A stretch of DNA of 64,000 nt from a virus. Below, piece by piece: positions 23,255-62,704 of the stretch. Where the stretch lies: the IMG/VR virus record IMGVR_UViG_3300047558_000077, positions 1 to 64,000 of that record. One strand, 5' to 3'. The notes below the pieces were generated by a model. That model had not been told where the DNA came from. It saw nothing but the letters and a program-made list of their open reading frames with translations, and ran no database searches. The position numbers and the translations under genes were made by a program. Every line of letters begins with the position of its first letter. The stretch's first letter is position 1.

Positions 23255-23647
23255 ATGAATGATGAACTACCACAAGCCAAGTTCATTAGACTACAGAATG
23301 GTGAAGATATCGTATCCGAGACAGTAGAATATGAAGACGAAAAAGGTGTGCTATATATGTTATGTAACCCTTTGAAAGTTGTTTACGCACAATCACCTCA
23401 CCATGGATATCTTTCAGTCTCTTTCATTCCCTGGGTATTCACAAAGATTTGTGACAGCCAAGAGTTTGTCATCCATGCTGATGATGTATTGCTTATTTCC
23501 AATGTATCGGAACAAATAAATGATTACTATTGGGCTAACGCACAATCGTCTAATAAATCTCTTGAGGAACAACATGAAGAAGTTATCGAGCCTGAACCAG
23601 AAGAAACTCCTGAGGTATGCTCTTACAACAAAAGGACATTTCACTAA
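23255..23647 (+). CDS. Conserved T4-like hypothetical protein downstream of uvsW
   Basis: KFIRLQNGEDIV...NPLKV...FIPW pattern common in this position. Confidence 0.55.
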   Translation: MNDELPQAKFIRLQNGEDIVSETVEYEDEKGVLYMLCNPLKVVYAQSPHHGYLSVSFIPWVFTKICDSQEFVIHADDVLLISNVSEQINDYYWANAQSSNKSLEEQHEEVIEPEPEETPEVCSYNKRTFH

Positions 23648-23956: not shown

Positions 23957-24802
23957 TTGGTTAATACTTGGTGGTTGGATGCGGAGCATATTATACACAA
24001 AGTTGGAAACCTGTCAAGCCCTAAAATGAAAGAAAGTGATAAATTGTTCAACTTTTTTCACCGCACACCAGAGATTCATCTGGACTGCTTCACAACAAAT
24101 AACACCGTATATCTGACTACACCTATCATCAAAGCATCTAAAGCTATACCGGAATGGTGGCGAAAGATGACACCACATCAACCACAGTTTCGACAATCAG
24201 AAAAAGTTCCTTTTTATGTAGAAGACAACATGACAGTGAGAGATTGTTATGCGTTCATAGAGTTATATAAAAAAGGAGTCATCATCGAGAATTGGTGTGA
24301 CATCTCATTTAGAGTAGAGAACGGTAGTTATAACTATTGTTATTCACAAGGAGATTCTCCTCAAGATCATCCTAGGGAACAGCTTGGCGATTCTTTTCCT
24401 AATCATCACCACATAAAACTACTAAGTCCATGGGCGTTTAGAGAAACTACAGGTATCCAGTTTGCGTGGCTGGGTGCGGAATGGTCACTTGATAAACTTG
24501 AAATAAAAGTCTTGCCAGGAGTCATAAACTTTGATATAGTATCACAGATTAACGTGAACTTTATGTTTCCAGTTAGGAACGGTATGTTCAACATACCTGT
24601 AGGTAATCCTTTGGTGCATTTGATTCCTTTGTCAGAGAAAAAATTGAAAGTCCATAATCACTTGGTGACCGACCAAGAGTTTAAAAAGAACATACTTGAT
24701 TCAAAATCAGTTTCGTTCTATGGTTGGAAAAGAGCGTTACAGTTAAGAAAAAGAAATAGAGAACGAGGTACCTGCCCGTTTCAGGGAGATAACAATGACT
24801 AA
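23957..24802 (+). CDS. Hypothetical protein (true start probably ~24026-24044)
   Basis: IPEWWRKM, KLLSPW, LPGVI and GNPLVHLIPL motifs recur in freshwater phage proteins. Confidence 0.5.
   Translation: MVNTWWLDAEHIIHKVGNLSSPKMKESDKLFNFFHRTPEIHLDCFTTNNTVYLTTPIIKASKAIPEWWRKMTPHQPQFRQSEKVPFYVEDNMTVRDCYAFIELYKKGVIIENWCDISFRVENGSYNYCYSQGDSPQDHPREQLGDSFPNHHHIKLLSPWAFRETTGIQFAWLGAEWSLDKLEIKVLPGVINFDIVSQINVNFMFPVRNGMFNIPVGNPLVHLIPLSEKKLKVHNHLVTDQEFKKNILDSKSVSFYGWKRALQLRKRNRERGTCPFQGDNND
23990..24017 (-). promoter_or_regulatory. Antisense sigma70 promoter with no downstream minus-strand gene
   Basis: Reverse complement reads TTGACA-16bp-TATAAT. Confidence 0.65.
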
Positions 24803-25391
24803 AAAGAAAAAAAATCACTACGTAGATAATGAACGGTTCTTTGCCGAGATCGTTGAATATAAGAAACAATGTAAAGTTGCTGAATTAGAAGGTAGAGAAA
24901 AGCCTATGCTATCAGATTACATAGGCAAATGCATTTTCCTGATTGCGGAAAACCTAGCACATAAGCCAAGGTTCATGAACTACTCATTTGTCGATGAAAT
25001 GAAGTCTGATGCTATTGAAAACTGTTTGATGTATTTTGATAACTTTGACTCGGATAAGTATAGCAATCCGTTCGCATACTTCACACAGATTATTTACTAC
25101 GCTTTTCATCGCCGCATAAACAAGGAAGAAAAGAATCGATATATAATGTATAAGAAGTTTCAGGAAAGTATTCTAGATACTACTCAACATTTTGAAGGTT
25201 TTAACATTGACAGTCATTCACTACTTTTAGATAGTGCAGACAACCACGTTATGAATACTCAGATATATGATAACATTAATGACTTTATTGATCGTTTTGA
25301 GAAACGTGAGGAAGAGAAGAAAGCCAAGCGTAAAGTAAAAAAAGAAGGACTCGAAAAGTTTATAGGAGAAGATGATGAAAGAAGAGAATGA
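24795..25391 (+). CDS. gp55: Late-transcription sigma factor gp55
   Basis: HYVDN..F, YIGKC..LIAENL, EMKSDAIENC, NPFAYFTQIIYYAF.RRI.KE. Confidence 0.95.
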   Translation: MTKKKKNHYVDNERFFAEIVEYKKQCKVAELEGREKPMLSDYIGKCIFLIAENLAHKPRFMNYSFVDEMKSDAIENCLMYFDNFDSDKYSNPFAYFTQIIYYAFHRRINKEEKNRYIMYKKFQESILDTTQHFEGFNIDSHSLLLDSADNHVMNTQIYDNINDFIDRFEKREEEKKAKRKVKKEGLEKFIGEDDERRE

Positions 25392-25820: not shown

Positions 25821-26897
25821 ATGGCGCTGATTGCTATGCCTACCGATACACACGCCGGAGTCAGAAATGATAATCCGGCGTTTCAGACGTATCAAAAGAA
25901 ATGTTGGAAGTGGTTCATTGATTATATTGATGCTAATAACATCAAGCATGTCATTCATCTTGGAGATATCTATGACCGTAGAAAGTATATCAACTTTATG
26001 TCGGCCAAGCGCCTGCGTGAGGACTTCTTTGAACCATTAGAGGAGAGAGGCATTGAAACTCACATTATACAAGGCAATCATGACTCTTATTACAAGGATA
26101 CACACGAAGTCAACGCTCTCGACGAAGTTGTCCGTGGGCGATATACTCACATTAGGACTTATAGCGTTCCTACTCTTATCAATATTGACGGCCTTGATAT
26201 TCAAATAATGCCATGGATTACCGACTCTAACTATGAAGAGTCCATGGAAGCAATCAAACATCCTAAAGCACCGATCCTCATGGGTCACCTTGAGTTGAAC
26301 GGTTTCACTATGCACAGAGGACTTATATCAGATCATGGATTGGATCGCAAACTCTTTGAAAACTTTGACGCTGTATATTCAGGTCACTATCACCACCGTA
26401 GCACTGTTGGTAATATTACTTATATTGGCGCCTTTGGTGAGTATACTTGGCACGATTACTCGGACCCTAGAGGATTTTCTGTCCTGGATACTGCATCCAG
26501 GAAACTAGAGTTCATACAGAATCCGCATAGAATGTTCCGTATTGCTAAGTATGATGATGTTGCTAATCCGGATATTATAGAGAAAATCCAGAAAACAGAT
26601 TTCAGTATGTATAAAGATTGCTACGTCAAACTGATTGTAGTGAACAAAAGCAATCCATACGCATTTGATTTGCTCTTTGATTCCATTTACAAAGCAGGTC
26701 CACTGGACATTCAGATTGTTGAAGATCCTACAGTTTTACTAGATTCCGAAGAAGATGTGGAGATTGACGAGGCCGAAGATACCGTAAGCATACTAAAAAA
26801 GTATGTTGAAGGGTTGACACTATCAGTAAATAATGATAGAATGAAAAAGTTTATGATTGATGTATATAACGAAGCCTTACAGGTTGAAACAGTATAG
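25821..26897 (+). CDS. gp47: Recombination endonuclease subunit gp47 (Mre11/SbcD-like)
   Basis: DTHAG, HLGDIYDRRK, GNHD, GHLEL.GF and SGHYH phosphoesterase motifs. Promoter TTGACG-17-TATACT at 25754-25782. Confidence 0.95.
   Translation: MALIAMPTDTHAGVRNDNPAFQTYQKKCWKWFIDYIDANNIKHVIHLGDIYDRRKYINFMSAKRLREDFFEPLEERGIETHIIQGNHDSYYKDTHEVNALDEVVRGRYTHIRTYSVPTLINIDGLDIQIMPWITDSNYEESMEAIKHPKAPILMGHLELNGFTMHRGLISDHGLDRKLFENFDAVYSGHYHHRSTVGNITYIGAFGEYTWHDYSDPRGFSVLDTASRKLEFIQNPHRMFRIAKYDDVANPDIIEKIQKTDFSMYKDCYVKLIVVNKSNPYAFDLLFDSIYKAGPLDIQIVEDPTVLLDSEEDVEIDEAEDTVSILKKYVEGLTLSVNNDRMKKFMIDVYNEALQVETV
26814..26842 (+). promoter_or_regulatory. Sigma70-type promoter for ftsH within the 3' end of gp47
   Basis: TTGACA-17bp-TAGAAT with extended TGn. 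Confidence 0.65.
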
Positions 26898-26908
26898 GAT
26901 AATATGAT

Positions 26909-28699
26909 ATGAAAAAACTAATCCCTTGGGTAGCATTTCTGTTGATTGCTGCTATGCTTTTTGCTTTTTCTATGGAAAGCAGAGGTCGTAACACAACAAA
27001 CGAAATCGCTTATACAGATTTTATGACACAGGTAGAACATAATAACGTCCATGATATCACTATCTATGGTAGTCAAGTCACAGGACATTATAAAACTGAC
27101 AATAGATCATTTACAACTTATGTTGCCTCACTAACAAATCTTATGCCTAAACTAGAGGAACATAAGGTTCACATTACAGTGAAGTCGGATGATCCTGAAT
27201 CATCTTTCTGGACAACACTATTTCTAAATCTACTTCCTGTTGTATTCTTTTTTGGTCTATGGATTTTTCTGTCTCGCCGTCAAGGTGGTGGCATGGGTGG
27301 TCCTATGTCCTTTGGCAAGTCAAAGGCTAAACTGCTAACAGAAGCAAATGGAACAAAGACATTTGATGATGTTGCTGGTGTAGATCAAGCAAAAGAAGAC
27401 TTACAGGAAGTTGTGGAGTTTCTACAGGATCCGCATAAGTTTGAACGACTAGGTGGTAAGATTCCTCGTGGTGTTCTACTTGTTGGTCCTCCTGGTACAG
27501 GTAAAACTCTACTAGCAAGAGCGGTTGCTGGTGAAGCGGGCGTTCCGTTCTTTAGCATTTCCGGTTCTGACTTCGTTGAAATGTTTGTCGGTGTCGGTGC
27601 TTCTCGTGTCCGTGATATGTTTGAGCAAGCAAAGAAGAATGCTCCTTGCATTATCTTCATTGACGAAATCGACGCCGTTGGTCGTTCTAGAGCAAATGGA
27701 TTTAGTGGTAATGATGAAAGAGATCAGACACTAAACGCCATGCTTGTTGAAATGGATGGTTTCAATGATAACGAAGGTGTTATTGTTATCGCTGCTACCA
27801 ACCGTGTAGATGTTCTAGATAAGGCACTAACTCGTCCTGGTCGTTTTGATAGACAGGTTCAGGTTCCTAATCCAGACTTTGTTGGTCGTGAAAAGATTTT
27901 GAAAGTTCACACACGCAAGGTTCCTATTGGTCCTGATGTTGATCTAAAGACTGTTGCAAGAGGAACACCAGGTTTTTCTGGTGCCGATCTTGCTAATCTT
28001 GTCAATGAAGCAGCACTACTAGCAGCACGCCGTTCAAAGCGTATTGTTACTAGTAGTGAGTTTGAGGATGCCCGTGATAAGATCCTAATGGGAGCAGAAC
28101 ATAGAACACTTCTAATGACAGAAGATGAAAAGAGAATGACAGCCTATCACGAAGCAGGTCACGCTCTTGTTTCTCTCAACATGACTGGTTCTATTCCAAT
28201 CCACAAAGCGACAATCATTCCTCGTGGCGGTGCTCTTGGTATGGTTCAGTCACTACCTGAAAGAGATAAAATCTCACAGTCTTATGAGGAAATGATTGCT
28301 CAACTTGCTATGGCTATGGGTGGTCGTGTAGCAGAAGAAATCATCTTTGGTAACGAGAAGGTAACTTCTGGTGCTTCGGGTGATATCCAGCAAGCGACAA
28401 AACTAGCAAGAGCAATGGTTACTGAATATGGATTCTCTCGTAAACTAGGTAGAATGGCATATTCAACACCTGGTGCTGATATGTTCAATAGTCCTAAGAT
28501 TTCAGAAGAGACTCAAAAGACTGTTGATGAAGAAGTCCTAAAGTTGGTTGAGGAAGGATATAAAACAGCAAAAGATATTCTTACATATCATAAAAAAGAC
28601 CTTGACAAACTAGCAGAAGGTCTGCTAACATACGAGACACTAACGGGTCAAGAAATCAAGGATCTGTTACAAGGAAAGACACCAACAAGAGATTTTTAA
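26909..28699 (+). CDS. ftsH: ATP-dependent membrane zinc metalloprotease FtsH
   Basis: Two TM segments, Walker A GPPGTGKT, pore FVGVG, Walker B IFIDEID, SRH TNR.D.LD.AL.RPGRFDR, HEAGH zinc motif, [10 protein letters not shown]. Confidence 0.97.
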
Positions 28700-30423
28700 T
28701 GATAACATTCCATGTGATTAGATACAAAAATTTTCTATCATCTGGAAATGTGTTTACTGAAATAGAACTAGACTCTCATAAGAATACTCTTATTATGGGT
28801 CACAACGGCGCAGGGAAATCAACATTGCTTGATGCCCTGTGCTTTGTTCTTTTCGGTAAGCCGTTTCGTAAGGTGAACAAAGGTAATGTTGTAAATAGCA
28901 TTAATAACAAAAACTGCCTTGTTGAGATTGAGTTTACCGCAAACAACAAGCGGTACAAAGTTATCCGTGGTGCCAAACCTAATGTGTTTGAAATCTACTG
29001 TAACGATGTAAAGATCAATCAAGATGCCGCTGCTAAAGACTATCAGGAACATCTAGAAAAATATATTCTAAAGATGAACTATAAGTCATTCACACAGATT
29101 GTTATTCTTGGTTCAGCATCGTTTGTTCCTTTCATGCAGTTGTCATCCAATGATCGTCGGTCTGTTATCGAGGATCTTTTGGACATTCAAATCTTTACCG
29201 CCATGTCTACGGTTGTAAAGAATAAACTACAAATGAACAAAGAAGGTCTAGAAAAGAACCGTGTTGTCTTGACTAGCAAGAATGAGAATAAGTCTTACAT
29301 TGAAAAGACACTTGCTTCCCTTCGTGCTAATAACGAAGAGAAGTTGAAAGAACTTGAAGCAAGGAAGGACGAACTTACGCAAGAGTCCATTAAGCAAGAA
29401 TGTATTGTTGAAAATCTTAAAATTGATTTTGAGAAAGCAACCGATCAAGACCTAAACCTAACACCATTAAAGACTAAGCATTCCAAGTTGGTCGCATTCA
29501 AGGCCAAGATTGAAGGCAATAAAGAAAGAGTTGTAAAAGAAAACTTTTTCTATCATGATAATGATACCTGTCCAACTTGTAAGCAGGATATCAGTCATGA
29601 ACATAAGTTCAATATGATGACAGATAATGACAAGAAGATTGCTGAATATGGAGATGGACTAAATAAGATCGAGGAACAAATCAACTCCGTTCTATCTGAA
29701 ATCGAGCGCATAGATGAAATCTTACAGAACATCAACAAGATTAAGTTGGATCTTTCATCTGCTAAGGCTACCTATAACAATACTGCTAATAATCTTCGTC
29801 AAATCGTGGAGCAGATTGAATCATTCGCTACATCGGACAAAACCACCCAAGAGTCAGAACGACAACTCCAAGTCGTTCAACATGATATTTCCACCCTCGA
29901 AGAAGAGAAGAAGGCCCTTCTAGATGACAGACAATACATTGACACGGCCATCACCCTACTCAAAGATGGTGGAATCAAGACTCGAATCATTAAGCAATAT
30001 CTACCTATCATCAATAAGCATATCAACAAATACCTGGCTAAACTGGGTTTCTTTGTTAACTTTAACATTGACGAATCCTTTAACGAATCCATCAAGAGTC
30101 GTTTCCGAGACGAGTTCTCCTATCAGAACTTCTCCGAAGGAGAGAAACTCCGAATTGATTTGGCCATACTTCTAACATGGAGACAGATTGCTAAACTAAA
30201 AAACTCCGTGAATGTCAATATTCTGGTGTTTGATGAAATACTCGACCGTGCCATGGACGCTAGTGGTATCGACGAGTTCCTTAAGATCATGTGGGATATG
30301 GGAGACAAAGGAACAAACATCTTCGTTATCTCACATAAGGACAGTATGGTCGATAGATTCCAGAGAACCTTGAAGTTTGAAAAGGTAAAGAACTTTTCGG
30401 TCTTGACAAGCGCCCAAGAATAG
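28699..30423 (+). CDS. gp46: Recombination ATPase gp46 (Rad50/SbcC-like)
   Basis: GHNGAGKST, zinc hook CPTC, FSEGEKLRIDLA signature, LVFDEILD, ISH. Confidence 0.96.
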   Translation: MITFHVIRYKNFLSSGNVFTEIELDSHKNTLIMGHNGAGKSTLLDALCFVLFGKPFRKVNKGNVVNSINNKNCLVEIEFTANNKRYKVIRGAKPNVFEIYCNDVKINQDAAAKDYQEHLEKYILKMNYKSFTQIVILGSASFVPFMQLSSNDRRSVIEDLLDIQIFTAMSTVVKNKLQMNKEGLEKNRVVLTSKNENKSYIEKTLASLRANNEEKLKELEARKDELTQESIKQECIVENLKIDFEKATDQDLNLTPLKTKHSKLVAFKAKIEGNKERVVKENFFYHDNDTCPTCKQDISHEHKFNMMTDNDKKIAEYGDGLNKIEEQINSVLSEIERIDEILQNINKIKLDLSSAKATYNNTANNLRQIVEQIESFATSDKTTQESERQLQVVQHDISTLEEEKKALLDDRQYIDTAITLLKDGGIKTRIIKQYLPIINKHINKYLAKLGFFVNFNIDESFNESIKSRFRDEFSYQNFSEGEKLRIDLAILLTWRQIAKLKNSVNVNILVFDEILDRAMDASGIDEFLKIMWDMGDKGTNIFVISHKDSMVDRFQRTLKFEKVKNFSVLTSAQE

Positions 30424-30849: not shown

Positions 30850-31497
30850 ATGAAATATCTTTTTTATGAAGATTGGGCTAACAAGCGTATTGATAGAGTT
30901 GTTAGCATCTTTGGTAAGGGCTGGTTCAACGGCAAAACTGTTCTTGAACTAGGTGCTGCTCATGGTGATATTGGTATCGAGTTACTAAAACTCGGTGCCG
31001 ATGTTACTTTCTCCGACGTAAGACAAGAGCATCTAACATCCATAAGAAACAATCTAAAGCAGTATAACTTCACACCAAAGACAATCTGTTTCAATCAAAA
31101 TGAAAAGTATGATCTTGGTAAAAAGTTTGATCTAGTTCTACACATCGGTGTTATCTATCATGTTAAGAACTGGAAACAAGATTTAGAATGTGCGTTAAAT
31201 CATACCAACACAATGATACTAGAGTCCGCAGTTTATCCTACAGATAAGCATATGAGACATCCAGTTTATGGTCCTTTCAAGTGTGAGAATCCACAATTCA
31301 CACAAGAAGAGATTGAAGAACATCTTACATCGTTAGGGTGCAAGTTCATTCGTTTCGATATTCCCGAGTTAGACTGTATGGGTGGTTGGCTAACATCTGA
31401 CATGAGAAACAACCATCTTTATAGTTGGACTAATGAAAGAGAAAACATAATCGGTGAGATGGATCATTACAGAAGGTTTTGGTTGGTGCTAAAGTGA
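30850..31497 (+). CDS. Class I SAM-dependent methyltransferase
   Basis: VLELGAAHG motif I, FDLVLHIGVIYH. Confidence 0.8.
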   Translation: MKYLFYEDWANKRIDRVVSIFGKGWFNGKTVLELGAAHGDIGIELLKLGADVTFSDVRQEHLTSIRNNLKQYNFTPKTICFNQNEKYDLGKKFDLVLHIGVIYHVKNWKQDLECALNHTNTMILESAVYPTDKHMRHPVYGPFKCENPQFTQEEIEEHLTSLGCKFIRFDIPELDCMGGWLTSDMRNNHLYSWTNERENIIGEMDHYRRFWLVLK

Positions 31498-32084
31498 TAT
31501 TAGAATTAGGCACAACCAAGATACTAAGAACACGTTACGATAGCACACCAGAGTTATATCAGTCCATATCAGACAAACTTAGAGATATAACAAGTCAATC
31601 AAACAAAGTTCCTTGGTTCATTCTAAACGGTAGTTGCTCATTTCATAATGTAGAAGATGAAGGAAGACAATTATACAAATGGGAAGAGTTGAAAGATTTG
31701 GTTGTGTTCCTTAAAGATGTTATGCGTGAGTATCTTGATAGTGTCTCTATAAAAGAAGAGGACGCTGCCGTTGCAGGAATGTGGGCCAATAGATATCCGC
31801 CAGGAACTTTTGTTGCTAGGCATAACCACAATCATTTGAAGAAAGAGGAACACATAGTCATTGGTGTGTTATACTACATTAGAAAAGATGACAATGCAGG
31901 AAGTTTGTATATTGACATTCCTGAATATGGCGAGTATAATGTGAATATGAATGAAGGAGATGTTGTTGTCTTCCAATCGTCTCTAGATCACTGGACTGTT
32001 CCTAACAATAGCAATACGGACAAATACGTTATAGGAATGGAACTAGTAGTAGGTGAAAAAGGTATGACCATAAATGAAATTTGA
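31479..32084 (+). CDS. Putative 2OG-Fe(II) oxygenase
   Basis: WANRYPPG..VARHNH, GVLYY, EGDVVVFQSSLDHWTVPN. Confidence 0.75.
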   Translation: MVGAKVILELGTTKILRTRYDSTPELYQSISDKLRDITSQSNKVPWFILNGSCSFHNVEDEGRQLYKWEELKDLVVFLKDVMREYLDSVSIKEEDAAVAGMWANRYPPGTFVARHNHNHLKKEEHIVIGVLYYIRKDDNAGSLYIDIPEYGEYNVNMNEGDVVVFQSSLDHWTVPNNSNTDKYVIGMELVVGEKGMTINEI

Positions 32085-45504: not shown

Positions 45505-46044
45505 ATGACAAACTATAAGTTTAACACAGAAAACTTCGCATTTCCTTCCGCTCTAGCCAGACAATTCATTGGCTTCGATTCGGTACTTGAAAATTTCAAT
45601 CGAGCTACCGAGCAATTGACCAAAGCTACTAATTATCCTCCATACAATATCAAGAAAATTGACGAAGAACATTTTGTAATCGAAATGGCAGTTGCTGGTT
45701 TCGGTAAGCAGAATCTTGATATTGAATTAAAGGACGGCGAACTGACCATTACTGGTAGACATGACGCCGACGAAAGTGACTACATCTACCAAGGCATTGC
45801 TAACAGGGCTTTCACCCGTAAGTTTACTCTTGCCGATACAGTGGTTGTAAAGAATGCCGAATTGGTCAACGGCCTATTGAAGATCGCTCTTGAACGTTAT
45901 ATTCCGGAAGAGAAGAAAGCGAAGAAGATCGACATTCTAGATCCATTCGGTGTTGGTGAAACGACAAGGCAATTTCTCACCGAGAGCGGCAAAGTTTGGG
46001 CCGAAGGCCTACAGAAAGTCGCAGAAACTATGACGCCTAAATAA
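45505..46044 (+). CDS. Small heat shock protein Hsp20 (IbpA-like)
   Basis: FIGFD, NYPPYNI, IEMAVAGF, GIANRAFTRKFTLAD, NGLLKIALE. Confidence 0.95.
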   Translation: MTNYKFNTENFAFPSALARQFIGFDSVLENFNRATEQLTKATNYPPYNIKKIDEEHFVIEMAVAGFGKQNLDIELKDGELTITGRHDADESDYIYQGIANRAFTRKFTLADTVVVKNAELVNGLLKIALERYIPEEKKAKKIDILDPFGVGETTRQFLTESGKVWAEGLQKVAETMTPK

Positions 46045-61850: not shown

Positions 61851-61930
61851 AGTAGTCAATGGTGACTACTAAATAAAAGACCGGGCATCCTATCCCGGAG
61901 ACCGGTCAATCACAAAATAGGAGTGAATAT
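61851..61930 (+). promoter_or_regulatory. pmoC regulatory region: palindrome, late promoter, structured leader and SD
   Basis: AGTAGTCA-ATGG-TGACTACT abuts CTAAATA. GACCGG/CCGGTC and CCGGG/CCCGG helices; AGGAG SD. Confidence 0.6.
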
Positions 61931-62704
61931 ATGAGCGTTGTAAAACAAACGGCAACTGCCGTGGCCACCGACGTTGATACACAGGTCGTTGACCTACGAG
62001 GCATGTGGATTGGGCTCGCCCTTCTAAATGTCTTTTATCTAATCGTCCGTATCTATGAACAGGTTTATGGCTGGCGTGCTGGTCTTGACTCGTTCGCACC
62101 AGAGTTTCAGACATATTGGATGTCTATTCTTTGGACAGAAATCCCACTAGAACTTATCTCAGGTCTTGGTCTTGCAGGTTATCTTTGGAAGACTAGAACC
62201 CGTGACTTCTCTCTTGTAACACCAAGGGAAGAAATGCGCCGTCTAGCGGTGTTGGTTCAGTGGTTGGTTGTTTATGCTGTTGCTATCTACTGGGGTGCAT
62301 CGTTCTTCACCGAACAGGATGGTACCTGGCATATGACAGTCATTCGTGATACGGATTTCACTCCGTCCCACATCATTGAGTTCTACATGAGTTACCCAAT
62401 CTACTCAATCATTGCTGTTGGTGCGTTCTTCTATGCTCGCACTCGTATCCCTTACTTTGCTCAGGGATATAGCCTAGCATTCTTGATTGTTGCTATTGGA
62501 CCATTCATGATCATCCCGAACGTTGGCCTGAATGAGTGGGGCCACACCTTCTGGTTCATGGAAGAACTATTCGTTGCTCCTCTACATTGGGGCTTCGTGT
62601 TCTTCGGCTGGATGGCTCTAGGTGTCTTTGGCGTTGTGCTACAGATCCTAGGTCGTGTCCACAGTCTCGTTGGACGAGATGGTGTAAGACTCCTTACCGA
62701 ATAA
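61931..62704 (+). CDS. pmoC: Particulate methane monooxygenase subunit C (Methylocystis/Methylosinus type)
   Basis: GLDSFAPEFQTYWM, WGASFFTEQDGTWHMTVIRDTDFTPSHIIEFYMSYP and PNVGLNEWGHTFWFMEELFVAPLHWGFV motifs. N-terminal VVDLRGMWIGLA matches type II methanotroph PmoC as recalled. Confidence 0.97.
   Translation: MSVVKQTATAVATDVDTQVVDLRGMWIGLALLNVFYLIVRIYEQVYGWRAGLDSFAPEFQTYWMSILWTEIPLELISGLGLAGYLWKTRTRDFSLVTPREEMRRLAVLVQWLVVYAVAIYWGASFFTEQDGTWHMTVIRDTDFTPSHIIEFYMSYPIYSIIAVGAFFYARTRIPYFAQGYSLAFLIVAIGPFMIIPNVGLNEWGHTFWFMEELFVAPLHWGFVFFGWMALGVFGVVLQILGRVHSLVGRDGVRLLTE

What the first reader, a model, noticed from the sequence alone, without database searches (positions are those of the whole stretch)
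26814..28701. Intact FtsH inserted between gp47 and gp46: possible phage-run turnover system for pMMO
Seen: a full-length FtsH with all catalytic motifs splits the normally adjacent gp47-gp46 pair. It has its own sigma70 promoter inside gp47 and is coupled to gp46 through a TAATG overlap, so it looks integrated rather than a passenger. The same genome carries pmoC and hsp20. Known: FtsH extracts and degrades damaged or unassembled membrane proteins (photosystem II D1 in cyanobacteria, SecY, and regulators such as sigma32 and lambda CII). Inference: by analogy with cyanophage psbA and the D1 repair cycle, early phage FtsH could remove host or damaged PmoC so that late phage PmoC is swapped into pMMO. 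Alternatively it could destroy membrane-bound anti-phage sensors.
Basis: partly seen in the sequence, partly recalled or inferred. Interest (0 to 1): 0.8.

Follow-up and report, generated by a model that had tools for sequence, protein, structure and literature searches.

The report
Methanotroph-derived FtsH protease in pmoC phage
A lake phage of methane-eating bacteria carries an intact membrane protease gene (ftsH) taken from its host lineage. That lineage keeps an extra ftsH next to a spare methane-monooxygenase gene (pmoC), so the protease may service this enzyme, but phages exist that have either gene without the other.

Summary
Window 26909-28699 (+) encodes a 596-aa full-length FtsH (TIGR01241 820 bits; all catalytic motifs) between gp47 and gp46, joined to gp46 by TAATG. 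The 172-kb T4-like genome also carries stand-alone pmoC and hsp20.

New here:
- The gene is conserved at this site in about 45 viral contigs, with dN/dS about 0.1.
- All these phage FtsH form one clade nested inside the FtsH of pmoC-bearing (methanotroph) alphaproteobacteria.
- The nearest host genomes keep an accessory ftsH directly upstream of a monocistronic pmoC, as published for Methylocystis SC2.
- A second T4-like lineage carries a pmoC-hsp20-M15-ftsH cassette.
- A separate gamma-type FtsH family occurs in pmoC-bearing jumbo phages.

Against an obligate link:
- A complete DTR genome (G585) has ftsH but cleanly lacks pmoC.
- Sublineage B2 keeps hsp20-M15-ftsH without the adjacent pmoC.
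- Three complete pmoC phages lack ftsH.

Verdict: a real, selected auxiliary FtsH of methanotroph origin. A role in pMMO/PmoC quality control is the best-supported reading (about 0.45). A strict "swap host PmoC for phage PmoC" mechanism is not required. First readers of this scan noted the same gene in other genomes. Chen et al. 2020 do not mention it.

The parts
24795..25391 (+). gp55-like late sigma factor; part of the conserved T4-like uvsW-gp55-gp47-gp46 block
   Evidence: phrog_234, E 1.7e-53
25821..26897 (+). gp47 (Mre11/SbcD-like nuclease subunit)
   Evidence: phrog_100, E 5e-100; Metallophos
26814..26842 (+). sigma70-like site TTGACA-17-TAGAAT inside the gp47 3' end, upstream of ftsH
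   Evidence: 11/12 match with TG. Kept only in the nearest relatives. Site density in the region equals chance.
26909..28699 (+). ftsH: full-length membrane AAA+ zinc metalloprotease, 596 aa. It has two TM segments (about residues 5-21 and 100-121), a short periplasmic domain, an AAA+ module and an M41 protease. It lacks the roughly 50-aa C-terminal tail of the bacterial proteins.
27485..27508 (+). Walker A codons (GPPGTGKT, residues 193-200)
   Evidence: invariant in alignment A1. This is also the site where relative L077 carries a LAGLIDADG intein.
28148..28162 (+). zinc-site codons HEAGH (residues 414-418)
   Evidence: H414, E415 and H418 are invariant
28602..28631 (+). sigma70-like site TTGACA-18-TAACAT inside the ftsH 3' end; a likely internal promoter for gp46
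   Evidence: The -35 is exact in 19/19 clade-A copies and the -10 is TAGAAT in 15/19. The same peptide is encoded with other codons in group B, where gp46 is not downstream.
28697..28701 (+). TAATG stop/start overlap of ftsH and gp46
   Evidence: TAATG or TGATG is kept in most clade-A relatives.
28699..30423 (+). gp46 (Rad50/SbcC-like ATPase subunit)
   Evidence: phrog_77, E 6e-168
45505..46044 (+). hsp20 (small heat-shock protein), 17 kb from ftsH here; lies close upstream of ftsH (M15 peptidase gene between) in group B phages
   Evidence: PF00011, E 9e-20
61868..61875 (+). late-promoter-like ACTAAATA about 55 nt upstream of pmoC
   Evidence: read directly. CTAAATA count in the window is not above chance, but 15 of 16 copies are on the + strand.
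61931..62704 (+). stand-alone pmoC, 88-91% identical to PmoC of an alphaproteobacterial methanotroph genome
   Evidence: PF04896, 354 bits

Best explanation
The gene is a working, membrane-anchored FtsH protease that phages captured once from a Methylocystis-type (alphaproteobacterial, type II) methanotroph. It then spread between at least two T4-like phage lineages and a few large-genome contigs.

In this clade it was inserted at the gp47|gp46 junction and wired into that operon. It overlaps gp46 at stop/start, and a promoter for gp46 is kept inside its 3' end.

Inferred mechanism: during infection, phage FtsH hexamers sit in the host's pMMO-packed membranes. They extract and degrade damaged or unassembled membrane subunits, above all PmoC. 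This keeps methane oxidation, and so energy supply, running. It is the phage counterpart of the host's own accessory ftsH-monocistronic pmoC module, and it works alongside phage PmoC and Hsp20 where these are present.

Shown: gene identity, intactness, purifying selection, donor lineage, and linkage to pmoC in hosts and in phages.
Inferred: the substrate (PmoC/pMMO) and the benefit to the phage.

Phage pmoC is not required for FtsH to be useful, because host PmoC would be a substrate too.
For: 1. It is a bona fide FtsH with every catalytic motif.
2. dN/dS is 0.07-0.13 in all lineages. The gp47-ftsH-gp46 arrangement occurs in about 45 contigs.
3. In the IQ-TREE analysis, phage FtsH is monophyletic (100/99). 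It nests in a clade (100/100) whose bacterial members all come from genomes that carry PmoC. It groups with G411/G490 (94/94).
4. G411 and G490 have an accessory ftsH directly upstream of a monocistronic pmoC, distinct from the housekeeping tilS-ftsH-glmM copy. The same is published for Methylocystis SC2 and Rockwell (PMC3794950). The ML tree puts the phage clade sister to this accessory paralog, with weak support (74/72).
5. The phage PmoC is 88-91% identical to the G411 copies, so both genes trace to the same host group.
6. Group B phages carry pmoC-hsp20-M15-ftsH within 4 kb on one strand, in 13 loci. The deeper-branching phage FtsH lineages G011 and G019 have pmoC 8-10 kb upstream on the same strand.
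7. FtsH (70%), PmoC (94%) and M15 (88%) are far more alike between lineages A and B than gp43 (45%) or UvsX (32%). This indicates exchange of these accessory genes between phage lineages.
8. A second phage FtsH family, sister to Methylococcaceae/Methylogaea FtsH, occurs in pmoC-bearing jumbo contigs G026 and G567.
Against: - G585 is a complete 169-kb genome with direct terminal repeats. It has gp47-ftsH-gp46 but no pmoC, and there is a clean 2.2-kb gap at the syntenic site.
- B2 phages keep hsp20-M15-ftsH, with dN/dS 0.09, but lack the adjacent pmoC.
- The complete pmoC phages G016, G017 and G024 have no ftsH.
- Some clade-A relatives have lost ftsH or never had it.
- FtsH is pleiotropic in bacteria. 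Co-occurrence with pmoC may only reflect a shared host gene pool.
- The paralog of origin is unresolved: a housekeeping sister is not rejected (p-AU 0.34).
- There is no expression or biochemical evidence.
Confidence: 0.45

Rival explanations
1. General proteostasis or host takeover. Phage FtsH, together with Hsp20, manages membrane and heat-shock stress or regulatory proteolysis in the infected cell. By analogy with E. coli FtsH, substrates could include sigma32-type factors, LpxC, SecY-type jammed translocons and phage regulators. There would be no special relation to pMMO.
For: - ftsH is retained under purifying selection without phage pmoC, in G585 and B2.
- In group B its constant neighbours are hsp20 and the M15 peptidase, not pmoC.
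- FtsH-like genes also occur in non-methanotroph jumbo phages of the PA5oct/MIJ3 group, where the function is unknown (PMC6892783).
- The pleiotropy of bacterial FtsH is established knowledge.
Against: - This reading does not explain why the alpha-type phage family nests within methanotroph FtsH and the gamma-type family is sister to a clade that includes methanotroph (Methylococcaceae) FtsH.
- It does not explain why hosts pair an extra ftsH with a spare pmoC.
- It does not explain why pmoC lies within 10 kb upstream of ftsH in every non-clade-A alpha-type lineage examined except B2, which lacks it at that site, and contigs that end short of that position.
Confidence: 0.33
2. Interference with host FtsH control. 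The phage subunit forms its own or mixed hexamers that escape host regulation (for example an HflK/C-type cage). This would change which membrane proteins are degraded, and could serve lysis timing or superinfection control.
For: - The AAA+ module is 84-85% identical to the host's. The TM1 plus periplasmic part, which in E. coli contacts HflK/C (7vhp), is only 36-44% identical, even within clade A.
- The C-terminal tail is missing.
Against: This is purely inferential. Fast evolution of the periplasmic domain can be relaxed constraint, and dN/dS there is still 0.04-0.14. No partner genes were seen.
Confidence: 0.1
3. Counter-defence: the protease destroys membrane-bound anti-phage sensors or effectors.
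For: None was found here. Only the general fact that some defence effectors are membrane proteins.
Against: There are no defence or anti-defence neighbours. The gene sits among replication and recombination genes, or in the pmoC-hsp20 cassette. This reading would not explain the methanotroph-specific origin.
Confidence: 0.05
4. Neutral passenger, or a contig or assembly artefact that carries a bacterial gene.
For: Several 'phage' FtsH hits in public phage records look like bacterial contamination. One example is MaAM05, where ftsH is flanked by glgX, proS and lepA.
Against: - The same insertion point recurs in about 45 independent contigs from many samples.
- GC content is phage-like.
- dN/dS is about 0.1.
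- The overlap with gp46 and the embedded promoter are conserved.
Confidence: 0.02

Closest known systems
Bacterial FtsH (E. coli FtsH/HflB, PDB 7vhp; TIGR01241)
   Same: Same domain order and all catalytic motifs. Aligns over residues 2-588. 819.7 bits against a 600-bit cut-off.
   Different: Encoded by a lytic T4-like phage. Lacks the roughly 50-aa C-terminal tail. The TM1/periplasmic part is strongly diverged (36-38% identical to the donor lineage, against 85% in the AAA+ module).
Accessory FtsH1 next to monocistronic pmoC in Methylocystis sp. SC2 and Rockwell (Dam et al. 2013, PMC3794950)
   Same: Same genus-level FtsH clade (94/94). The ML tree places it as sister to the phage clade. It shows the same pairing of an extra ftsH with a stand-alone pmoC.
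   Different: The sister relation is weakly supported (74/72), and the housekeeping copy is not rejected (p-AU 0.34). In this window ftsH and pmoC are 33 kb apart. Only group B phages keep them close together (about 1.3 kb apart, separated by hsp20 and the M15 gene).
pmoC-phages of freshwater lakes (Chen et al. 2020, Nat Microbiol, PMC7674155)
   Same: The window's genome fits the description. It is 172 kb and T4-like, has a stand-alone pmoC about 90% identical to Methylocystis-type PmoC, and has hsp20.
   Different: [quoted passage not shown] It does not mention FtsH in its text or in the supplements held here.
Cyanophage psbA and the FtsH-dependent PSII D1 repair cycle
   Same: A phage supplies a copy of a labile membrane subunit of the host's energy-harvesting complex. 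In cyanobacteria FtsH removes the damaged subunit (general knowledge).
   Different: Cyanophages rely on host FtsH, whereas here the phage also brings the protease. That PmoC is the labile, FtsH-cleared subunit of pMMO is an inference and has not been shown.
FtsH-like gp107 of Pseudomonas jumbo phages MIJ3/PA5oct (PMC6892783)
   Same: Phage-encoded AAA+/M41 protein of unknown role.
   Different: Only about 45% identical, and the match covers residues 151-587 only, with no match to the TM/periplasmic part. Unrelated phage group and host, and no pmoC.

Membership tests
FtsH (TIGR01241; MEROPS M41 AAA+ protease) | Whole-protein score above the curated equivalog cut-off | tested here: met
   819.7 bits against a cut-off of 600
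FtsH (TIGR01241; MEROPS M41 AAA+ protease) | N-terminal membrane anchor: TM1, periplasmic domain, TM2 | tested here: met
   FtsH_ext hit at residues 7-92. Residues 2-121 align with the E. coli TM1-periplasmic-TM2 region.
FtsH (TIGR01241; MEROPS M41 AAA+ protease) | AAA+ module with Walker A, Walker B, aromatic pore loop (FVG) and second region of homology with arginine fingers | tested here: met
   G193-T200, D252-E253, F226-V-G228, T297-N-R299 and R309/R312 are invariant in 13 phage copies
FtsH (TIGR01241; MEROPS M41 AAA+ protease) | M41 zinc site HExxH plus third ligand Asp | tested here: met
   H414, E415, H418 and D492 are invariant; Peptidase_M41 E 7e-66
FtsH (TIGR01241; MEROPS M41 AAA+ protease) | Hexamer with ATP-dependent proteolysis of membrane substrates | not testable with these tools
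   Needs biochemistry.
pmoC-phage (Chen et al. 2020) | Phage genome with stand-alone pmoC and no pmoA or pmoB | tested here: met
   pmoC at 354 bits. No PF02461 or PF04744 match in the 172-kb record (no positive control). T4-like core genes are present.
Host-type accessory ftsH-pmoC module (Methylocystis SC2 type) | ftsH immediately next to a monocistronic pmoC | tested here: not met
   In this window the two genes are 33 kb apart. Not strictly met in group B relatives either: pmoC and ftsH share a 4-kb cassette but hsp20 and the M15 gene lie between them. Met in hosts G411 and G490.
Host-type accessory ftsH-pmoC module (Methylocystis SC2 type) | Phage FtsH descends from the accessory paralog and not the housekeeping one | tested here: inconclusive
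   It is sister in the ML tree at 74/72. The alternative is not rejected, p-AU 0.34.

The most novel reading that the evidence does not exclude
FtsH, stand-alone PmoC and Hsp20 together form a transferable pMMO repair kit. In this reading PmoC is the sacrificial, rapidly turned-over subunit of particulate methane monooxygenase, as D1 is in photosystem II, and a dedicated FtsH clears it. Methanotrophs evolved this module as accessory ftsH plus monocistronic pmoC. Phages captured it and pass it between lineages to keep methane oxidation running during infection. Capture of a separate gamma-type FtsH by pmoC-bearing jumbo phages would then be convergence on the same solution.
Probability: 0.35. 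Interest if true: 0.85.

Novelty: new variant of a known kind. Interest (0 to 1): 0.62.

Why it matters
pMMO is the main biological sink for methane, yet how the enzyme is maintained, and why methanotrophs keep spare pmoC copies, is unresolved.

Two independent lines point to FtsH-dependent turnover of the C subunit: a host accessory ftsH-pmoC pair, and phages that carry ftsH, pmoC and hsp20, sometimes as one cassette. This gives a concrete experiment, using a trap mutant and PmoC half-life measurements in Methylocystis.

It would also be, to my knowledge, the first auxiliary gene set in which a phage brings both the replacement subunit and the protease of a repair cycle. Finally, it corrects the published statement that PmoC is the only distinctive protein of pmoC-phages.

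Tried and rejected
- **G002 as an 'ftsH+ pmoC-' case:** rejected. Its contig ends fall exactly in the pmoC neighbourhood.
- **G013 as 'pmoC-':** uninformative. The contig ends 6 kb upstream of ftsH, while its near-twin G019 has pmoC 10 kb upstream.
- **Microcystis phage MaAM05 FtsH as a cyanophage parallel:** rejected. The gene lies among glgX, proS and lepA, which looks bacterial. Most other full-length hits in the phage collection are short unannotated records or a Salmonella genome.
- **Promoter inside gp47 as evidence of early expression:** not conserved beyond the nearest relatives, and the site density equals chance.
- **Paralog of origin:** the AU test could not decide it.
- **Co-capture of ftsH and pmoC as one DNA segment:** considered. 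The gene order in G411 and G490 (ftsH then pmoC) is opposite to the phage cassette (pmoC ... ftsH). The Rockwell order reported in PMC3794950 would fit, but this was not tested.
- **Structure and complex prediction:** not run. A pass would only reflect homology to solved FtsH structures.
- **pmoC in ftsH-lacking clade-A relatives (G582, G583 and others):** those contigs do not reach the pmoC position, so there is no answer.


Full report
**1. What is there**

The window is the first 64 kb of a 172,364-bp IMG/VR virus record judged 100% complete. The ORF at 26909-28699 (+) encodes 596 aa.
- Pfam finds FtsH_ext, AAA, AAA_lid_3 and Peptidase_M41 in the canonical order.
- The NCBIfam FtsH equivalog scores 819.7 bits against a cut-off of 600.
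- E. coli FtsH (7vhp) aligns over residues 2-588, so only the bacterial C-terminal tail is missing.
- In an alignment of 13 diverse phage copies, Walker A, Walker B, the FVG pore loop, the SRH arginines, HExxH and the third zinc ligand D492 are all invariant.

Upstream lie a UvsW-like helicase, a gp55 late sigma factor and gp47. Downstream lies gp46. This is the usual T4-like cyanophage-type order, with ftsH as the one extra gene. The ftsH stop overlaps the gp46 start (TAATG, 28697-28701). The same genome has a stand-alone pmoC (61931-62704) and hsp20 (45505-46044), and no detectable pmoA or pmoB.

**2. It is conserved and selected**

A scan of IMG/VR with the protein returned 80 loci at 49-94% identity. 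About 45 of them (75-94% identity) have exactly gp47-ftsH-gp46.

An unbiased sample drawn with gp46 gives the same picture. Within the clade (gp46 at least 72% identical) almost all loci carry ftsH. More distant T4-like relatives have gp47 and gp46 overlapping or 5-20 nt apart.

A gp47+gp46 tree needs one gain at the base of the clade. At least one later loss is needed, because L358 is nested among ftsH-positive rows.

Pairwise dN/dS is 0.07-0.13 in every lineage, and lowest in the AAA+ module. Only a few copies are truncated or interrupted (L074, L057/L124).

**3. Wiring**

It is kept only in the closest relatives. Another subclade instead has a late-type TATAAATA or CTAAATA overlapping the gp47 stop. 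So the time of expression is not a conserved feature.

More telling is a second site inside the 3' end of ftsH (28602-28631 in the window).
- The -35 TTGACA is exact in 19 of 19 clade-A copies.
- The -10 is TAGAAT in 15 of 19.
- Synonymous divergence across the clade is saturated.
- Group B phages, where gp46 is not downstream, encode the same peptide with different codons that break the hexamers.

This looks like a promoter for gp46 that selection maintains within ftsH, which is a mark of long integration.

**4. Where the gene came from**

The top 120 matches in the 5.8-billion-protein collection are all of this phage type (at least 69% identity, about 595 aa). The best bacterial matches are alphaproteobacterial.

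In a 143-row FastTree and a 41-row IQ-TREE (LG+C20), the phage sequences form one clade (100/99). That clade sits inside another (100/100) whose bacterial members come from G411, G445, G490, G492, G529 and G531. These are six of the only eight genomes among 121 sampled from that family that carry PmoC, so they are the methanotrophs. The phage clade groups with the copies from G411 and G490 (94/94).

The window's PmoC is 88-91% identical to the G411 copies, so both genes trace to the same host group. Chen et al. 2020 predicted Methylocystis as host for phages of this size class.

**5. The host parallel**

G411 has a housekeeping ftsH in the canonical cpoB-tilS-ftsH-glmM context. It also has an accessory ftsH that lies about 345-390 bp (by the two searches) upstream of a pmoC with no pmoA behind it. 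G490 has the same pair. This is the arrangement published for Methylocystis sp. SC2 (FtsH1 next to monocistronic pmoC1Gs) and strain Rockwell. Those authors speculated on a role in pMMO quality control (PMC3794950).

In the best tree the phage clade is sister to these accessory copies, but only at 74/72. A tree with the housekeeping copies as sister is not rejected (p-AU 0.34).

**6. The phage parallel**

The second set of loci (67-72% identity) belongs to another T4-like lineage. Its gp43 is 45% and its UvsX 32% identical to the window genome's. There the order is pmoC-hsp20-M15 peptidase-ftsH-gp43-uvsX on one strand, seen in 13 loci.

Two large-genome contigs with deeper-branching FtsH (G011, G019) have pmoC 8-10 kb upstream on the same strand.

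FtsH (70%), PmoC (94%) and the M15 peptidase (88%) are much more alike between the two lineages than core genes are. These accessory genes have therefore moved between phages that share hosts.

A separate phage FtsH family, sister to Methylococcaceae/Methylogaea FtsH, occurs in jumbo contigs. Two of these (G026, G567) carry pmoC. The other members are fragments, so this second association is only suggestive.

**7. What speaks against an obligate FtsH-PmoC system**

- G585 is a 169,069-bp genome with direct terminal repeats, judged 100% complete. It has gp47-ftsH-gp46 but no pmoC by profile or by protein search. It is collinear with the window on both sides of a clean 2.2-kb gap where pmoC would be.
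- Within group B, a derived sublineage (B2) is collinear with the cassette but lacks just the pmoC gene. Its ftsH still has dN/dS 0.09.
- Conversely, complete pmoC phages G016, G017 and G024 have no ftsH.
- Two apparent counter-examples were discarded because contig ends fall at the critical place (G002; G013).

So each gene can be kept without the other. A role on host pMMO remains possible in pmoC-less phages, since the host always supplies PmoC.

**8. Reading**

I take the following as shown: this is a functional auxiliary FtsH of methanotroph origin, long integrated in this phage clade.

The most likely function (about 0.45) is quality control of the pMMO-rich membranes, with PmoC as prime substrate. 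This rests on the repeated physical pairing of an extra ftsH with a spare pmoC in hosts and in phages.

The main rival (about 0.33) is general proteostasis or regulatory proteolysis together with Hsp20.

The strongly diverged TM1/periplasmic part contrasts with the AAA+ module (36-44% against 84-85% identity). This suggests altered regulation, for example escape from an HflK/C-type cage, but that is inference only.

**9. Novelty**

Chen et al. [quoted passage not shown] They do not mention FtsH in their text or in the supplements held here. No paper in the library links phage FtsH with pmoC. Phage FtsH-like genes have been reported only for PA5oct/MIJ3, with unknown role.

First readers of this scan flagged the same gene, and the pmoC-hsp20-ftsH cluster, in other genomes. 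No follow-up was on record.

Noticed in passing
L077:8324-11302 (also L076): A relative of this FtsH (extein about 77% identical) is a 992-aa ORF. It carries an insert of about 365 aa with a LAGLIDADG domain exactly at the Walker A motif. This looks like an intein in a phage FtsH, and it lies in a genomic context without gp46 or gp47.
   Followed up: partly
L116:8841-13080, L133:8756-12631, L134: In another phage lineage (gp46-like only 25-27% identical), pmoC itself sits between the gp47-like and gp46-like genes. That is the same junction that holds ftsH in this window. Other relatives have 0.2-0.95-kb inserts there, so the gp47|gp46 junction is an insertion hot spot.
   Followed up: partly
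window 28602-28631 and the equivalent site in clade-A loci: A sigma70-like promoter embedded in the ftsH coding sequence is conserved at synonymous positions in 19/19 clade-A copies. It is lost in lineages where gp46 is not the next gene.
   Followed up: yes
G567:C1:10472-11380 (L331, L332): pmoC in this jumbo-phage fragment is read in two pieces (profile positions 4-207 and 204-223 in another frame or stretch). This may be an intron or a frameshift like the split pmoC genes noted earlier in this scan.
   Followed up: no
genome G000 87676-88338 (outside the window) and L046:9271-9936: An M15-family peptidase is 88% identical between two phage lineages whose DNA polymerases are only 45% identical. 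It appears to have been exchanged together with pmoC and ftsH among phages of the same hosts.
   Followed up: partly
L074:10001-11563; L057 and L124 (same contig): A few FtsH copies are truncated (520 aa) or carry an internal stop. These are rare decay or assembly errors, in contrast with the otherwise intact family.
   Followed up: no
L413 (MW495066.1 197320-206876): The 'ftsH' of Microcystis phage MaAM05 is flanked by glgX, proS and lepA. This part of the deposited phage record looks like bacterial DNA.
   Followed up: partly
window 31479-32084 and 23255-23647: A 2OG-Fe(II) oxygenase (phrog_81) and a small protein matching phrog_471 ('methylamine utilization', with a weak Sm-like Pfam hit) lie near the ftsH block.
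   Followed up: no
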